From: Eledone cirrhosa
Lineage: Eukaryota
Assembly (NCBI GenBank): GCA_964016885.1
Contig: OZ024757.1
Location: 32,054,001 to 32,118,000 of the forward strand
Length of the DNA: 64,000 nucleotides
Reading direction: 5' to 3'
Positions 15,246 to 51,672 of the stretch are shown in pieces. The position numbers and the translations under genes are program-made. The notes beneath the pieces were generated by a model, which did not search any database, was not told the DNA's origin, and saw nothing but the letters and a program-made list of their open reading frames with translations. Each line of letters opens with the position of its first letter. Positions within the stretch are counted from its first letter, which is position 1.

Positions 15246-15433
15246 GTGTTTATATATATATATATATCAACCAATATATACATGCAAACGCGCGCGTGCG
15301 CGCATATATCTTTAGCTGTTCAAACGAAAGGAAGAAATCTGACACTCAACTATCTCTTGAAAATATTCCTATGAATTCAGTTGACTTCCACTGAAGTAGA
15401 TTTTAACAATTTCCCCGTGTATTCAATATTTCT

Positions 15434-15618
15434 GGTGGATTAGCAGTATCAGTAGAGAGTCGGACGCCATGCTTTCCAGCATAGTTATGTCCCTTTACGG
15501 TCTGAGTTCAAATCACGCCGAGGTTAACTTTGTCTTTCATCCTTACGGGATCGATAAAATAAAGTACCAGTAATGTACCGAGTAATTGCTGGCCTTGTGC
15601 CAAAAGTAGAAACAATTA
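15434..15618 (+). mobile_element. SINE family A copy
   Basis: Full head-to-tail match to 1870-2052. Confidence 0.85.
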
Positions 15619-15677
15619 TTTCTGTAAGTTAAATCTACAGGTAGAAATTTATTCTTCAGTTAACGGCAAAGTGTTGG

Positions 15678-17910: not shown

Positions 17911-18688
17911 ATACATACATACATACATACATACATACATACATACATACATACATACATACATACATACATACATACATACATACATACATACATACAT
18001 ACATACATACATACATACATACATACATACATACATACATACATACATACATACATACATACATACATACATACATACATGGTGGCTGCCAACTCGTTTT
18101 CGAGTACGGCCACTACTTTATATCCATCTAGGAGAACCCCTACCGATGCGCTGAACGAGTGTGACTTTTTAGTCTAGCCAGTGACTTGAAAACTCTGGTA
18201 CAAACACTACACCTGTGACAATTACTGACACATAGTGCTGGGCCCATGGTACCATGTGACGACAATGGCAGAGAGATCTCCAGATATAAAGCAATACCTG
18301 TGCCGTGAAGCTTTTATAGTGAGCAAAGGCACTGCACAAAGCCAGTCCCACTCTCTTAACCAAGATGATATTTACCAAAAAGAAGAACAAGTCAACATCA
18401 TTGGATACCATCAGGGTTGCAGGTGTTATATCAGAGTTTTCCTTCTCCTAGAATTCGGCCTTGACAAAGGCTAAGGGGTCATCTCTCGGTGATTTTGGAT
18501 GGCCATTGACTCTTAAGAGCTCCTTTGCCCTTTGACAGGTTTTGTTTTTAGTCCTGCAGGATGTTCAAAGTCACCCTCCTCACCAAGAAACCTTGGTGGG
18601 GTTGCCAGTTTAGTCGCCAACGACCCGACCATGGGACAGGTTGTACTGGGATACATGTTACCAGTAGCACCAACTGGTGACCTGACAT
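17911..18688 (-). mobile_element. Internally deleted non-autonomous RTE LINE derivative with (TATG)n tail, copy 1
   Basis: RTE-like 5'UTR (GCGACTAAACTGGCAACCCC; CTAGGAGAAGGAAAACTCTGA) fused to a C-terminal CxxC..H zinc-finger relic; paralog at 41172-41788. Confidence 0.75.
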
Positions 18689-19206: not shown

Positions 19207-20019
19207 TCAGTGCTCCTTCCAAAATATCCTTCATATAAAGTTCTTTGTTAATTTTAACTCCTTGAGGCACAAAAATAGAGGAGACTTCCCTCTTTCAGAA
19301 ATGGCTGCCCAAACCATCACTGATACTGGTTTCTGTGTTCTTAACACTTTTCCTACACTTGAAGGAATTGATTTGAGACTTTTTGCAAGTACTCCATCAT
19401 TTTGATGATTGTGAGACTGCTGCACAGTGAATAACTTCTCATCTGTAAAGATGATGTTTTGCAGCGTACTATCCTTGATACGGTTCAATAACAGTTTACT
19501 TATGGAGAGCCTCTTTTCAATTGTGGCTGCAGAAAGAAGCTGCATCTTTTGGAACTTATAGGGTGACATCCCCAGACCATCTCGACATATCCTCCGCATA
19601 GTTCTCGGCGAGGTTTCTGCTTCTTCTGCCATTTTTCTTGGATTACGCCTTATTTTTTCCCTCACACTTTTAACGAGTTTTGGTGTTCTTGAGGTGCGAG
19701 GGCGTCCGGATCGAGGTCTGTCTTTGGTCGAGGAAGTTTCCTTAAATCGATTGTCCTTTTGATCAACATTCTATTGATCTTAAGAGTTTTCCTCAGTTTA
19801 AATATCTCGGGTGGAGTCAGGCCTTTTTCATCCTTCTCTATTATGAACTTTCTTTTCAAATCTATGGACATTGTAAATTGTTAATGGCGTAATGTTCTGA
19901 AAAATAGTTAATATGGTTATAGTGCATGGATTTGATACAAATATATTAGTTATATTAGCAACATAATGTATTTTAAAAATTGATTTAAAACTTTGTAACA
20001 GGAATTATGCCCCACCCTC
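19207..20019 (-). mobile_element. Truncated, frameshifted Tc1/mariner transposon (maT/DD37D-like)
   Basis: HTH region, then (frameshift) DRPRSGRPRT, IIFTDEKLFTV..HN.QND, VMVWAAIS..GKSPL, VPQGVKIN..Y..DILE; 5' TIR TA-GAGGGTGGGGCATAATTCC ending at 20019; 3' part of the catalytic domain missing. Confidence 0.9.
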
Positions 20020-24299: not shown

Positions 24300-24466
24300 T
24301 ATTCTCGTCTGTCTTCTCGTCCTTTACTACTTCATCTCATCGCTGATTCGTTTTGTTAATATCTTCCACATGAGATTTTAATGATTTCACACATTGTATC
24401 CCAGTTTACTAGTGAATAATATATAGACACTGAGGAACGTAATCTGCGCGTACCTATGTATGTCAG

Positions 24467-24503
<37 letters not shown>

Positions 24504-24738
24504 TGATGTGTGTGTATATATGTATATATATATACATGTGTATATATATATATATATATATATTGATGTGTGTGTATATATGTATATACATATATGTATA
24601 TATACATATAGATACATATATATATACATATATATATATACATATATATATGTATATATATATAGATGCATATGTATATGGATATATACATATATATCTG
24701 TATATATATAATGTATATATACATATATATACATATAT

Positions 24739-25444
24739 ATATGAAAGACGGAAAATAAGAAAATTTTAAAAATTAAAAATCAACTTACTAAAATTTTTTC
24801 ACTCAAACTAATTAGTTTCTGTAATGGGATAAATATAGTTACATAATATAACCATAGAGAATTCATTACGTCATCAGGAAGTCTATTCTCAGCTAAGTTC
24901 CCAGGCAATGCGCGGACACTAGGAACCCATATAAAAATAATTCAGTGGATGGAATGAAGCTAGCGAGGACTAAATTCCGGAGCACTGAAAAAATTTCACT
25001 GCCTCTGGTCAGTGGCAGATTCTAAAGAATCAATCACGTGACACCGAGGTTAATCAGTTAGGAGCGGGGTGGTATTATGACAAGAGCCTACTACTACCAT
25101 GAAACAGCAGTAAATTTTTGGCAAGTTTTGCTCAACAAATAATTTGGAGATAAATATAGAGAATTAGTACATCTACCAACATATGTGTACAGATGTACAC
25201 TCATGCTAGCAAATATATAAGTTATGTCTTAGTACCTATGTGGTTCTATGCAGGGGGATGCAGAACAATTATATGAAAGACGTAAAGTAAGAAAATTTAA
25301 AAAATTAAAAATCAACTTACTAAAATTTTCACTCCATTTGCATCCCCCTGCATAGAACCACACAGGTACTAAGACATAACTTATATATTTGCTAGCATGA
25401 GTGTACATCTGTACACATATGTTGGTAGATGTACTAATTCTCTA
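24739..25444 (-). mobile_element. Ribozyme-containing retroelement with terminal direct repeat and inverted 5' segment
   Basis: Direct repeat 24739-24805 / 25271-25335; inverted repeat 25157-25262 / 25339-25444 (one mismatch seen); TA tracts on both sides. Confidence 0.8.
24801..24882 (-). ncRNA. Type I hammerhead ribozyme with long helix II
   Basis: ACTTC-CTGATGA-cGTAATG..CATTACa-GAA-ACTAATTAGT-T/TGAGT; palindromic helix III. Confidence 0.7.
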
Positions 25445-25551
25445 CATATATATATGTATATGTATATATATATATGTATATAAATGTATATATGTATATA
25501 TATATGTATATAAATGTATATATATATGTATATAAATGTATATATGTATAT

Positions 25552-25600
<49 letters not shown>

Positions 25601-25610
25601 AAATATATAT

Positions 25611-26160
25611 ATATGAAGTAAAAATTAGAAAGAGAAGCCAGGACTATCCATCATCAGTGATCTACTCGCCATCATCCCCTACTGCTATCCTCTTTCTCTC
25701 TCCCCCTTCTCTCTCCTCCCTCTTACTTTCATTCTCCCCCTCTGTTAATCACCCTCTCTCGGCTAGCCTCTTCCTCATACTCACCCTCTCTCTCACTTCC
25801 TCAATCGTCCGGCACCGTGCGAAATTCTTTTCTCGCTCACTTTTCGCATGGTACGGATGTGTCTTTCGTCTTCTCGTCAATGTTCGCAAGTTCTTATGTT
25901 CAAATGAATCACTGACTGGATTTTCTCATTTTTTCCCTCTCTTTACGTTGCCTCACCATTCTTGTTTGTTCACCTGTCTCTCTTCTTTTTATCCCAATAA
26001 CTTATTTTAGTTATTGTTCACGCTAGCCTGAGGTATCTGATCTTTAATGCGAAGAAATACCTATGATGGCGAGTAGATCACTGATGATGGATAGTCTGGC
26101 TTCTCTTTCTAAGTTTTACTTCATATGTATCACATTCGCAACAACACAGCACACCATTTT
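25611..26160 (+). mobile_element. Element with 65-bp inverted repeat (25611-25675 / 26063-26126), Penelope-like architecture
   Basis: ATATGAAGTAAAA.TTAGAAAGAGAAGCCAG.ACTATCCATCATCAGTGATCTACTCGCCATCAT and its reverse complement; inserted in (TA)n. Confidence 0.65.
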
Positions 26161-37378: not shown

Positions 37379-37504
37379 ATATATATGAGAGAGAGGGGGG
37401 GGGGTAACACGCACATATATGAACATATATGCTTAGTTGTTTGACATTTGAACTAACCATTCTTCCATTTATTCATTCTTTCTATGTTCTCATTCTCTTT
37501 GCAG

Positions 37505-37923
37505 TGCTTCAGGTGTCATTGAAGAACACTCTAGACGTTGCCGAACACCAAGAAATAGGAGAAGCCCTGTCGGAACTTAGCAAAGAAGGGGTACTTATCA
37601 TAGGATCAGGTTTTATGACCCACTCTTTCGAAAAAATGGGACAGTCACATAAATGTAACATATTCCAATGGGCCTCCGATTTACAGAAATGGGTCAGGGA
37701 TGTTTTCTGTAACCCTCGTCTAACCCCCATGGAACGGAAAGGACGCATGGTTGAATGTGAGAGCCTGCCGTTCTTCAAGAAAGCTCACCCACGCCTTGAA
37801 CATTTCCTACCGCTGGTCCTCGCTTCAGCTGTAGCTGGCTATCCACCGGGTCAACCAATATTCTCGTTCTTCGTCTCACCTAGTCTACTGATGGAACACA
37901 TTATTTTTAAGCCAATAGTGTAG
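37505..37923 (+). CDS. Terminal coding exon of a LigB-family / 4,5-DOPA extradiol dioxygenase-like (DODA/YgiD-like) gene
   Basis: Polypyrimidine tract plus TTTGCAG acceptor (phase 1); (V)LQVSL...H.EIGEALS.L..EGVLIIGSGFMTH...AHPRLEHFLPL, the C-terminal motifs of the DODA family; TAG at 37921-37923. Confidence 0.88.
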
Positions 37924-38102: not shown

Positions 38103-38876
38103 GTTTCTGATTTAGGCACAAGGACAACAAATTTTAGGGGAAGCGGAAAGTCGATTAAATCGATCCCAGTGCATTACTGGTGCTTTATTTTATCGACCCC
38201 GTACGGATGAAAGGCAAGGTTAACCTCGGCAGGCTTTGAACTCAGACCGTAAAGGTCCATAACTCTATGCTGCAAAGCATGGTGTCTGACGATCTACCGA
38301 TTCCGCCAACTCACCGCCTTTATAATAGCAATGATAATAACACTAATAAATTAGAACAATAACAATAACAATAACAACAATAACAGCAACATTAACGACA
38401 ATAACCACAACAATATGAATAGCAATATTAACAACAGCAATTACCCAGTACATCACTGGTACTTTATTTTATTGACCTCGTAAGGATGAAAGGCAAAGTT
38501 AACCTCGGCGGGATTTGAACTCAGAACGTAAAGGGCCATAACTCTATACCTCAAAGCATGTTGTCCCACGCTCTACCAATACTGCCAATCCGCCACCCTT
38601 ACAATAGCTATAATAATTGTTTCTACTGTTGGCACAAGGCCAGCAATTACCCAGTGCATTACTGGTACTTTATTTTATCGACCCGTAAGGATGAAAGGCA
38701 AAGTTAACCTCGGACTATAATAATTATTTCTACGTTAGGCACAAGGCCAGCAATTACCCAGTACATCACTGGTACTTTATTTTATCGACCCGGTAAGGAT
38801 GAAAGGCAAAGTTAACCTCGGCGGGATTTGAACTCAGACTGTAAAGGGACGTAACTATGCTAGAAAGCATGGCGTC
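38103..38876 (-). mobile_element. Cluster of four SINE family A copies downstream of the dioxygenase stop codon
   Basis: About 38103-38322, 38437-38602, 38615-38714, 38725-38876. Confidence 0.85.
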
Positions 38877-41171: not shown

Positions 41172-41788
41172 TATGGTGGCTGCCAACTCGTTTTCGAGTA
41201 CGGCCACTACTTTATATCCATGTAGGAGAACCCCTACTTGATGCGCTGAACGTGTGTGACTTTTTAGTCCAACCAGCGACTTGAAAACTCTGGTACAAAC
41301 ATTACACTTGTGACAATTACTGACACATAGTGCTGGGCCCATGGTACCATGTGACGACAAGTGCAGAGAGATCTCCAGATATAAAGCAATGCCTGTGCCG
41401 TGAAGCTTTTATAGTGAGCAAAGGCATTGCACAAAGCCAGTCCCACTCTCTTAACCAAGATGATATTTACCAAAAAGAAGAACAAGTCAACATCATATGA
41501 ATACCATCACGGTTGCAGGTGTTATATCAGAGTTTTCTTTCTCCTAGAATTCTGGCTTGACAAAGGCTAAGGGGTCATCTCTCCCGGTGATTTTAGATGG
41601 CCATTGACTCTTAAGAGCTCCTTTGCCGTTTGACAGGTTTTGTTTTTTAGTCCTGCAGGATGTCCAAAGTCACCCTCCTCACCAAGAAACCTTGGTGGGG
41701 TTGCCAGTTTAGTCGCCAGTGACCATACCATGAGACAGGTTGTACTGGGATACATGTACCAGTAGCACCAACTGGTGACTTGACATAT
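41172..41788 (-). mobile_element. Internally deleted RTE derivative, copy 2
   Basis: Collinear with 18078-18688; translates CNVCTRVFKSLVGLKSHTRSAH (C2H2-type finger). Confidence 0.8.
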
Positions 41789-50035: not shown

Positions 50036-50358
<323 letters not shown>

Positions 50359-51087: not shown

Positions 51088-51211
51088 ACGACGTAGACCA
51101 ATGCTTCTGAGCATTATATATATATTCATATATATATTCATATATTTATTCAGATATATATATATTCATATATAATATAAGATCAAAAGATGGTTAAAAG
51201 AGTTCCATGTA

Positions 51212-51278
51212 TTTTATTATGCGCATTTCAAAAACAAACATCATCATGCAATAATATTTGTGTTTTCATCAGATAAAA
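51212..51278 (-). ncRNA. Type I hammerhead ribozyme (mirror copy)
   Basis: Reverse complement of 51348-51414. Confidence 0.8.
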
Positions 51279-51347
51279 CAGGAGAAATGTTGATTTAAAA
51301 CTGCACTATCCACAAGTGTTTTTTAGCCTTCATATCATGTTCTCCTC

Positions 51348-51414
51348 TTTTATCTGATGAAAACACAAATATTATTGCATGATGATGTTTGTTTTTGAAA
51401 TGCGCATAATAAAA
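51348..51414 (+). ncRNA. Type I hammerhead ribozyme
   Basis: TTTTAT-CTGATGA-AAACACAAATATTATT..ATGATGTTTGTTTTT-GAA-ATGCGCAT-A/ATAAAA. Confidence 0.8.
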
Positions 51415-51611
51415 TACATGGAACTCCTTTAACCATCTTTTGATCTTATATTATGTATACTCCAATCCTACAAACTGTAGAGTGCTTCTTATCCGATATC
51501 TGCATTGCTTTATTGTACTACAATAAAACTCACCTCCTACATTATATTCATATATATATATATATATCAATGAAATTAATAAATGGAAACTATATTTATA
51601 AAAACATATTT

Positions 51612-51672
51612 ATTCTATTATATATATATTTCAAGGCTACCAAAACTTTGGTACGCGGTCATCAGATAAAAT
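51612..51672 (-). ncRNA. Type I hammerhead ribozyme (helix II base degenerate)
   Basis: ATTTTAT-CTGATGA-ccGCgTACCAA(AGTT)TTGGTAGCctt-GAA-ATATATATAT-A/ATAGAAT. Confidence 0.7.

What the first reader, a model, noticed from the sequence alone, without database searches (positions are those of the whole stretch)
24739..25444. 530-nt unit whose terminal redundancy starts at the predicted ribozyme cleavage site (retrozyme or circular-RNA signature)
Seen on the minus strand: the element starts at 25335 with GGAGTGAAAATTTTAGTAAG, runs 530 nt to the hammerhead (predicted cut between 24806 and 24805), then repeats the same ~65 nt before merging into (TA)n through CATAT. Similarity of the upstream copy ends within a base of the cut site. 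Its GGAGT pairs fully with helix I strand ACTTC, whereas the downstream copy TGAGT has one mismatch. A 106-bp inverted copy of an internal segment (25339-25444) caps the 5' end. I recognised no coding remnant. Inference: this is a cDNA of a self-cleaved RNA copied slightly more than once around (circular monomer or tandem pLTR), primed at a TA microhomology.
Basis: partly seen in the sequence, partly recalled or inferred. Interest (0 to 1): 0.8.

Follow-up and report, generated by a model that had tools for sequence, protein, structure and literature searches.

The report
Hammerhead retrozyme starting at ribozyme cut
A 530-base non-coding repeat that occurs in many copies in this genome carries a predicted self-cutting hammerhead RNA, and this copy starts at the predicted cut site, so it was likely pasted into a TA microsatellite from a ribozyme-cut RNA by Penelope-type retrotransposon enzymes; elements of this kind (retrozymes) are already known from many animals.

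Summary
In detail: a 530-nt unit (25335-24806, minus strand), a type I hammerhead with predicted cut 24806/24805, a 66-nt terminal repeat starting at the cut, and a 106-bp inverted arm, all inside (TA)n.

Read laying shows a high-copy family (2,462 contigs in run X1) with relatives under two other species labels. Other copies have a perfect helix I. One contig shows the head-to-tail junction at the cut site, and many reads run from about +66 into (TA)n.

It is most likely a new non-LTR retrozyme family moved by Penelope-like (PLE) enzymes. The two arms cover adjacent, non-overlapping stretches downstream of the second cut site (+1..+66 and +74..+179). That is twin-priming geometry on one linear RNA whose 5' end was made by the ribozyme. 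A closed circle has no evident reason to stop at the junction on its second pass.

Not shown: cleavage, expression, circles, the partner PLE, and any pile-up of 5' ends across the family. The cut-site boundary rests on this one copy. It is a known kind, but a useful test case for what the hammerhead does in PLE/retrozyme insertion.

The parts
24462..24737 (.). Left (TA)n-rich flank (target microsatellite; left bound approximate). ATATA microhomology with the element's +62..+66 end
   Evidence: sequence
24738..24805 (-). Downstream copy of the terminal repeat (+1'..+66' of a second unit, the PLE-type 'tail'). Begins with T where the family has G; supplies the 3' strand of helix I
   Evidence: family allele (24805)
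24782..24899 (-). Type I hammerhead: extended helix I (24899-24878 with 24805-24782, internal loop), core CTGATGA 24877-24871, helix II 24869-24821 with a long inner hairpin, GAAA 24819-24816, 2-bp palindromic helix III, predicted cut 24806/24805
   Evidence: constrained fold -18.1 versus MFE -21.2 kcal/mol; cleavage not tested
24806..25335 (-). 530-nt non-coding repeat unit, from the predicted cut (+1 = 25335) to the next cut
   Evidence: (fold z about -5.2 on this strand; opposite strand -105.2 versus shuffle mean -100.5, sd 5.5)
25013..25058 (.). Block shared with relatives in all four runs laid; role unknown
   Evidence: tables 2, 7, 8
25157..25262 (-). Unit positions +74..+179, the segment that is also present as the inverted arm; holds a long hairpin (+114..+168)
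25270..25335 (-). Upstream copy of the terminal repeat (+1..+66), starting at the predicted cut with the family G
25336..25338 (+). 3-nt junction (ATT): untemplated, or +67..+69 with a 4-nt gap before +74
   Evidence: reading is inference
25339..25444 (+). Inverted arm, sense +74..+179 on the plus strand, 3' end outward, 105 of 106 identical to the body
25445..25612 (.). Right (TA)n-rich flank; imperfect AT-rich microhomology with +180..+186

Best explanation
This is one insertion of a high-copy, 530-nt, non-coding repeat with a predicted type I hammerhead (a likely non-LTR retrozyme), likely copied into a (TA)n microsatellite by a Penelope-like reverse transcriptase/endonuclease from a linear RNA whose 5' end was likely made by hammerhead cleavage. 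Proposed steps: (1, inferred) a head-to-tail locus is transcribed. (2, inferred from the boundary) one hammerhead cuts, giving a 5' end at +1, while the next stays uncut, so the RNA runs +1..530 and on to at least +179'. (3, inferred from the junctions) both strands of the nicked (TA)n target prime inside the RNA at AU-rich points, one at about +66' and one at about +179'. (4, inferred) the first cDNA runs about 596 nt back through the uncut hammerhead and falls off at the cut site; the second stops at +74', just short of the first priming site. (5, inferred) the two cDNA ends are joined, which leaves a 66-nt direct repeat starting at the cut and a 106-bp inverted arm. Shown directly: the anatomy, the multi-copy family, one head-to-tail junction, and recurrent joins to (TA)n near +66.
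For: Family (4 of the 10 runs listed): 2,462 contigs laid in X1 (339/706/1,098/319 at 99+, 95-99, 90-95 and under 90% identity), 8,367 reads in X8, 52 contigs in X5 (organism B), 3 in X6 (organism C). Ribozyme under selection: at 24805 other copies carry the pairing G (X1 depth 201,089 of 201,719; X8 20 of 24 reads; X5 151 of 151). At 24879 most carry the base that makes helix I ACUCC/GGAGU, all Watson-Crick (X1 90%; X8 1,213 of 1,650 reads). A loose-end consensus of 9 X1 contigs (agreement 0.83) shows a shorter helix II with two compensated pairs and one mismatch (read by eye). Unit: X6 record 17 joins 25335 to 24806 ('goes back 530', 136 letters on the shorter side), i.e. hammerhead, cut, +1, then at least 209 nt of the unit. 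Defined 3' end: 222 of 227 X8 reads and 56 X1 contigs covering 24732 read TA repeat there; X8 depth there (227) nearly equals depth at 24751 (238). Structure on the hammerhead strand only. Geometry: arms +1'..+66' and +74..+179 are adjacent and do not overlap, as in twin priming (Kojima 2010, PMC2912911, passages). An X8 joint 24848/25262 on opposite strands (3 reads, 2 starts) may be a second copy whose arm begins at +74. PLE context: tail, inverted 5'-truncated copy and (TA)n bias (Craig 2021, PMC8557442, passages); internal priming downstream of the hammerhead cut, both strands cut and extended, AT-rich targets, uncut RNA as the main substrate (Frangieh 2024, PMC11167929, main text). Three other head-to-head insertions in (TA)n lie in this window (two with full hammerhead-type arms, one with a half core), and in those two the arms end at different distances from the cut.
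Against: The cut-site boundary rests on one copy. No 5'-end pile-up was visible (20 of 348 loose-end rows and 21 of 2,536 pieces shown). No tandem array is shown in organism A: the only head-to-tail joint is one contig at depth 2.4 in organism C. No autonomous PLE with a matching pLTR was found (no genome). Frangieh 2024 found no RNA ends at the hammerhead cut of the anole PLE and no need for cleavage in vitro. Under twin priming both duplicated segments come from a second unit, yet one pair differs at 5 of 66 and the other at 1 of 106 (p 0.03-0.16), which the model does not explain. The direction of the 24848/25262 joint is not given; the other two opposite-strand joints (25080/25321, 24898/25049) do not show adjacent arms. 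No Rfam hammerhead match. The hammerhead is not in the MFE of the circular unit (-134.6 versus -122.2 kcal/mol constrained). The extended helix I is only modestly better than shuffles (p 0.02 upstream copy, 0.09 downstream copy). 530 nt is above the 170-400 nt given for invertebrate retrozyme RNAs, though within the 51-972 bp range of Li et al..
Confidence: 0.55

Rival explanations
1. Rolling copy of a closed 530-nt circular RNA: priming at +66, one full round plus 66 nt, stopping at the ligation junction on the second pass.
For: Circles are shown for coral, mussel and axolotl retrozymes (PMC7229834) and proposed as templates for more-than-unit cDNA. The unit folds stably as a circle (z -5.2). 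Both repeats share minor alleles (C at 24781 and its partner base; lack of a 4-nt ACTT seen in other copies), and body and arm share the 25170/25431 allele, as a single template would give.
Against: It needs a pass and then a stop at the same bond (p about 0.006 if random), unless the junction stalls the enzyme. The repeats should start identical but differ by 5 events, with private changes on both copies (24751, 24805, 25287). It also needs displacement of the second cDNA.
Confidence: 0.12
2. Same ribozyme-cut linear RNA, but the inverted arm arose by fold-back: the cDNA ran off the RNA 5' end, snapped back on itself near +67..+74, copied 106 nt of its own strand and was then joined to the target.
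For: The arm is 105 of 106 identical to the body while the direct repeats differ more, as expected if only the arm was made at insertion. The junction ATT could pair with AAT at 25267-25269. Other head-to-head pairs here differ at 2 of 115 and 17 of 185, so close arms are not always homogenised.
Against: It does not explain why the arm starts just past the other arm's end, nor the AT-rich microhomology at +180..+186. Both-strand priming is shown for a PLE in vitro.
Confidence: 0.12
3. A doubly cut linear monomer was the template: the enzyme copied +66 to +1, jumped end-to-end to the monomer's 3' end (held close by helix I), copied the whole unit and ran off at +1 again.
For: It predicts exactly one unit plus 66 nt starting at the cut. 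The private T at 24805 sits at the jump point. End-to-end jumping is known for R2 (cited in PMC2912911; titles seen only).
Against: 99.7% of X1 depth has a perfect junction base, so jumps would have to be nearly error-free. Four other differences between the repeats remain. No such jump is described for a PLE in the papers I read.
Confidence: 0.1
4. It is the pLTR of a full-length autonomous Penelope-like element, inserted as an ordinary 5'-truncated partial tandem with an inverted copy; the match to the cut site is coincidence.
For: Tail, inversion and (TA)n target are standard PLE features. The C before helix II and the palindromic helix III are PLE-hammerhead traits (PMC4209133). Retrozymes are homologous to pLTRs.
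Against: After the cut the sequence continues into the same 530-nt unit, here and in X6 record 17, not into an ORF. No Pfam hit in 6 of 6 frames. Coincidence p about 0.006.
Confidence: 0.07
5. Local DNA duplication or an assembly fold-back next to microsatellites, unrelated to the ribozyme.
For: 47% of the window is dinucleotide repeat. No displayed contig or read is shown to span the 25335/25339 junction.
Against: The same junction phase (25335 to 24806) occurs under another species label. The upstream copy carries the family G. Similar head-to-head pairs with 2-9% divergent arms occur in the window.
Confidence: 0.04

Closest known systems
Metazoan non-LTR retrozymes (Cervera and de la Pena 2020, PMC7229834, parts 2-4 of 6 read; Li, Clavereau and Pollet 2026, bioRxiv 10.64898/2026.07.22.740005, parts 1-3 of 5 read)
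   Same: Non-coding, low-GC, well-folding repeat unit with one type I hammerhead per unit, a short helix III with a tetraloop, high copy number, a head-to-tail junction, dispersed near-monomers, and PLE-type hammerheads in the same genome.
   Different: 530 nt versus 170-400 nt for the invertebrate RNAs tested. Long helix II insert in this copy. Tandem arrays, expression and circles are not shown. The text I read describes no insertion whose 5' end lies at the cut or that shows twin-priming geometry; its model is multimeric cDNA from circles. The supplements of both papers could not be seen and may bear on this.
Penelope-like elements, EN+ clades (Craig 2021, PMC8557442, passages; Frangieh 2024, PMC11167929, main text; Cervera 2014, PMC4209133, passages and part 2 of 4)
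   Same: 3' end some tens of bases downstream of the hammerhead cut, partial tandem, inverted 5'-truncated copy with its 3' end outward, (TA)n target, no visible TSD; non-autonomous head-to-tail forms exist (MRC1).
   Different: No RT/GIY-YIG ORF. The hammerhead has an extended helix I rather than the minimal form. The arms are adjacent rather than overlapping. The 5' end lies at the cut, which Frangieh did not see in RNA-seq of the anole element.
Non-LTR retrotransposons with a 5' ribozyme: R2 with an HDV-like ribozyme (PMC3774820, search listing only) and Perere-3 with twister variants (PMC8501958, passages)
   Same: A genomic 5' boundary at the ribozyme cut is used as evidence that cleaved RNA was the template.
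   Different: They are autonomous, use other ribozymes that lie 3' of the cut and prime at the RNA 3' end. Here most of the hammerhead lies 5' of the cut, so the boundary appears as a terminal repeat.
L1 twin priming (Kojima 2010, PMC2912911, passages)
   Same: Both target ends prime one RNA, giving adjacent segments in opposite orientation with microhomologies at the target junctions.
   Different: L1 primes first at a poly(A) 3' end; here both primings would be internal. My search for twin priming with Penelope listed 3 papers, none on PLEs by title or abstract start.

Membership tests
Type I hammerhead ribozyme | CUGANGA / GAAA / NUH core with helices I-III | tested here: met
   family alleles restore helix I and helix II shows compensation. 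This copy has U1.1 and an extra A at the base of helix II; no Rfam model hit
Type I hammerhead ribozyme | Self-cleavage at the predicted site | not testable with these tools
   needs in vitro transcription
Non-LTR retrozyme | Non-coding unit of a few hundred nt, GC below 50%, with no LTR/PBS/PPT layout | tested here: met
   530 nt, GC 0.355; 0 Pfam hits in 6 of 6 frames; PBS/PPT not searched for specifically
Non-LTR retrozyme | Many genomic copies | tested here: met
   2,462 contigs in X1 and 8,367 reads in X8, mostly 90-99% and 80-95% alike respectively; depth is not a copy number
Non-LTR retrozyme | Head-to-tail repeats with a hammerhead in at least two consecutive units | tested here: inconclusive
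   One head-to-tail junction (X6 record 17) and about 1,166 X8 reads at 25287 that lie on the +66-to-body side; no piece holds two hammerheads, and this locus has one
Non-LTR retrozyme | Highly self-paired unit | tested here: met
   z -5.56 linear, -5.2 circular, 61% paired, strand-specific
Non-LTR retrozyme | Expressed as linear and circular monomer RNA | not testable with these tools
   needs RNA reads or a northern blot
Penelope-like element (autonomous) | RT plus GIY-YIG ORF | tested here: not met
PLE-mobilised element | Tail downstream of the hammerhead cut, partial tandem, inverted 5'-truncated copy, microsatellite target | tested here: met
   against passages
PLE-mobilised element | Sequence similarity to the pLTR of an autonomous PLE in the same genome | not testable with these tools
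   no genome held
Plant LTR retrozyme | Type III hammerhead inside long terminal repeats | tested here: not met
   type I topology; the repeat is 66 nt and holds only the 3' strand of helix I

The most novel reading that the evidence does not exclude
Across this family, insertions are made from ribozyme-cut linear RNAs by PLE-type priming of both target strands at two fixed internal AU-rich sites (about +66 and +179). The genome would then hold many fossils with 5' ends at the hammerhead cut and inverted arms starting near +74. That would be in vivo evidence that hammerhead-cut RNA is a real template for PLE/retrozyme insertion, and that rolling copying of circles is not needed to explain more-than-unit copies.
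Probability: 0.3. Interest if true: 0.65.

Novelty: new member of a known kind. Interest (0 to 1): 0.42.

Why it matters
The role of the hammerhead in Penelope-like elements is described as still unclear (Craig 2021). The one in vitro system found cleavage dispensable and saw no cut ends in RNA-seq (Frangieh 2024). The circle-template model for retrozymes is a proposal. A high-copy family with a fixed cut site lets the models be told apart by counting junctions in one assembly: linear cut RNA predicts 5' ends at +1, circles predict scattered ends. One copy does not settle it, and the element type itself is known.

Tried and rejected
Own genome: none held, so no genome-wide BLAST.

Rfam: no hit at the gathering score in the window. 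At E<=10, 55 matches, all below gathering and mostly miRNA-hairpin models matching the inverted repeat and TA runs; rejected. ARAGORN found 0 genes.

Coding remnant: the plus-strand peptide at 25270-25335 looked PLE-like by eye, but 0 Pfam hits in 6 frames; not pursued with a homolog search.

Pattern scans gave 0 matches: metagenome contigs twice (the second pattern carried this copy's minor allele at 24879 and would have missed most of the family), genome contigs, viral contigs.

Expression: no RNA holder listed.

Read-end pile-ups in X8 (24860, 24942, 25162, 25270, 25297) fall on AATT in the window and were rejected as restriction ends of the RAD library; the one at 25019 was not explained. 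Summed contig depths were not used as copy numbers.

My first argument, that the direct repeats are older than the inverted arm and so exclude a circle, was downgraded: p is 0.03-0.16, and under twin priming both pairs compare unit 1 with unit 2.

Earlier findings: none by place, by sequence or by the long word list.

Literature: searches with octopus or cephalopod terms listed 4, 2 and 2 papers, none describing such a family by title or abstract start. Searches for cut-site boundaries or twin priming in PLEs/retrozymes listed none on that point. Two relevant papers (PMC5785218, PMC5850863) were not held, and the supplement of PMC7229834 was unreadable.

Full report
OBSERVATION. Numbering from +1 = 25335 on the minus strand, the unit runs 530 nt to 24806 (GC 0.355). 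It is followed by a second copy of its first 66 nt (24805-24738; 3 substitutions, one 2-nt gap and G/T at the first base) and then by (TA)n. On the other side, three bases (ATT) and a 106-bp inverted copy of +74..+179 (25339-25444, 1 mismatch) lead into (TA)n. The hammerhead is type I with the predicted cut at 24806/24805. My descriptor found 5 such motifs in the window and none in 30 shuffles. Rfam does not detect it. Six reading frames give no Pfam hit. The unit folds far better than shuffles on the hammerhead strand (z -5.56 linear; -5.2 circular) and not on the other strand.

THE FAMILY. No genome is held, so the test of copy number came from one read-laying run on 4 of the 10 runs listed. 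It is a high-copy, diverged family: 2,462 contigs in X1 and 8,367 reads in X8 (organism A), 52 contigs in X5 (organism B) and 3 in X6 (organism C). The tables showed 40 of 229 variant rows, 20 of 348 loose ends and 21 of 2,536 pieces, so absence from them means little.

Four results matter. First, the T at 24805 is nearly private to this copy: 99.7% of X1 depth, 20 of 24 X8 reads and all X5 depth carry the pairing G. Most copies also carry the base at 24879 that makes helix I fully Watson-Crick, and a loose-end consensus from 9 contigs shows a shorter helix II with two compensated pairs. The ribozyme fold is therefore conserved in the family and decayed here. Whether the extra A at the base of helix II is private was not displayed. 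Second, X6 record 17 joins the end of the hammerhead directly to +1 and continues at least 209 nt into the unit, so 530 nt in this phase is a real repeat unit; this is one contig at depth 2.4. Third, 222 of 227 X8 reads and 56 X1 contigs that cover 24732 read TA repeat there, so a 3' end near +66 in (TA)n recurs. About five times as many X8 reads (1,166 at 25287) lie on the side that continues into the unit, in a biased RAD sample. Fourth, three opposite-strand joints show that other copies are also inverted.

CONTEXT. The window holds three other head-to-head insertions in (TA)n: 51172-51454 and 63229-63651 with hammerhead-type arms, and 25613-26124 with only a half core. It also holds single hammerhead-type motifs at 11447, 33578 and 51665. 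In the first two pairs the arms end at different distances from the cut (about +47 and +142; about +125 and +172). None of the five other hammerhead loci tested has a terminal repeat starting at its cut. The host is probably an octopus; this rests on my recall of the window's ~190-bp SINE-like repeat and was not tested.

MECHANISM. Tail, partial tandem, inverted 5'-truncated copy and (TA)n bias are the published marks of PLE insertion (Craig 2021, PMC8557442, passages). A PLE protein cuts and extends both strands of AT-rich DNA and starts reverse transcription inside the RNA, 111-118 nt into the ORF with the hammerhead cut at 26 nt, using mainly uncut RNA (Frangieh 2024, PMC11167929, parts 1-2 of 4). 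Animal retrozymes are proposed to be non-autonomous PLE derivatives (Li 2026; Cervera 2020).

What this locus adds is two coincidences. The long arm ends within a base of the cut (p about 0.006 if random). The two arms cover adjacent, non-overlapping parts downstream of the second cut (+1'..+66' and +74..+179, or +67 with a 4-nt gap), and both join the target at AU-rich points. One linear RNA, cut at the first hammerhead, uncut at the second and primed from both target strands, explains both; this is the twin-priming geometry known from L1. All of these steps are inferred. An X8 joint between 24848 and 25262 (3 reads, 2 starts) may be a second copy with an arm starting at +74, but its direction is not given.

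AGAINST. The cut-site boundary is one copy. Tandem arrays, expression, circles, cleavage and the partner PLE were not shown. The direct repeats differ more than the inverted pair (5 of 66 against 1 of 106; p 0.03, or 0.07 and 0.16 when one or two events are dropped). This fits a fold-back origin of the arm better than twin priming and is unexplained in my preferred model. The hammerhead is 12 kcal/mol above the MFE of the circular unit. A circle with a stalling junction, or an end-to-end jump on a doubly cut monomer, would give the same outline; I rate them 0.12 and 0.10. My estimates for the parts: retrozyme-type family about 0.85, ribozyme-made 5' end about 0.8, the whole chain 0.55.

COMPARISON AND NOVELTY. 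It works like, and most likely is, a metazoan non-LTR retrozyme: no defining feature that I tested failed, the tandem criterion is inconclusive, and the RNA criteria could not be tested. It is not an autonomous PLE (no ORF) and not a plant LTR retrozyme (type I topology). A 5' boundary at a ribozyme cut is known for R2 (listing only) and Perere-3 (passages). I did not find it reported for hammerhead retrozymes or PLEs in the papers read or in searches, but two key papers were not held and the supplements of Cervera 2020 and Li 2026 could not be seen. Verdict: real, a new member of a known kind, interest 0.42. It would rise to about 0.65 if a genome-wide count shows 5' ends piling up at the cut.

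Noticed in passing
window 51172-51454 and 51665 (-): Head-to-head pair of hammerhead-bearing arms in (TA)n, 113 of 115 alike, arms ending about +47 and +142 after the cut; a third hammerhead-like motif faces it at 51665.
   Followed up: partly
window 63229-63651: Older head-to-head pair with a minimal hammerhead (63497 +), arms 168 of 185 alike; the left arm's core is broken.
   Followed up: partly
window 25613-26124: Neighbouring insertion in the same (TA)n tract with 62-63-bp inverted ends (61 identical) holding CTGATGA but no GAAA; it ends in CTTCATAT like the focal element; no Pfam hit in 3 plus-strand frames.
   Followed up: partly
window 11447 (+) and 33578 (-): Single minimal hammerhead-type motifs followed by short U-rich tails and microsatellite; 8160-8227 matches the tail at 11496-11563.
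   Followed up: no
window 25013-25058: Block shared with relatives in all four runs laid, containing a CACGTG palindrome; it could be a promoter or protein-binding element.
   Followed up: no
window 37423-37920 (+): Open frame with a LigB ring-opening dioxygenase match (PF02900, E 3.4e-6), probably an exon.
   Followed up: partly
window 19234-19770 (-): 179-aa frame with weak HTH matches below cut-off; it looks like a Tc1/mariner transposase remnant (recalled resemblance).
   Followed up: no
window 15433-15620 and 10 or more other places: Dispersed ~190-bp SINE-like repeat at 74-94% identity, some copies with inversions (38608-38821).
   Followed up: no
window 18081-18688 / 41175-41786; 9127-10097; 50115-50231; 6177-6296: A 607-bp direct repeat (95%), a ~95-bp tandem array, and two short palindromic insertions next to (TA)n.
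   Followed up: no
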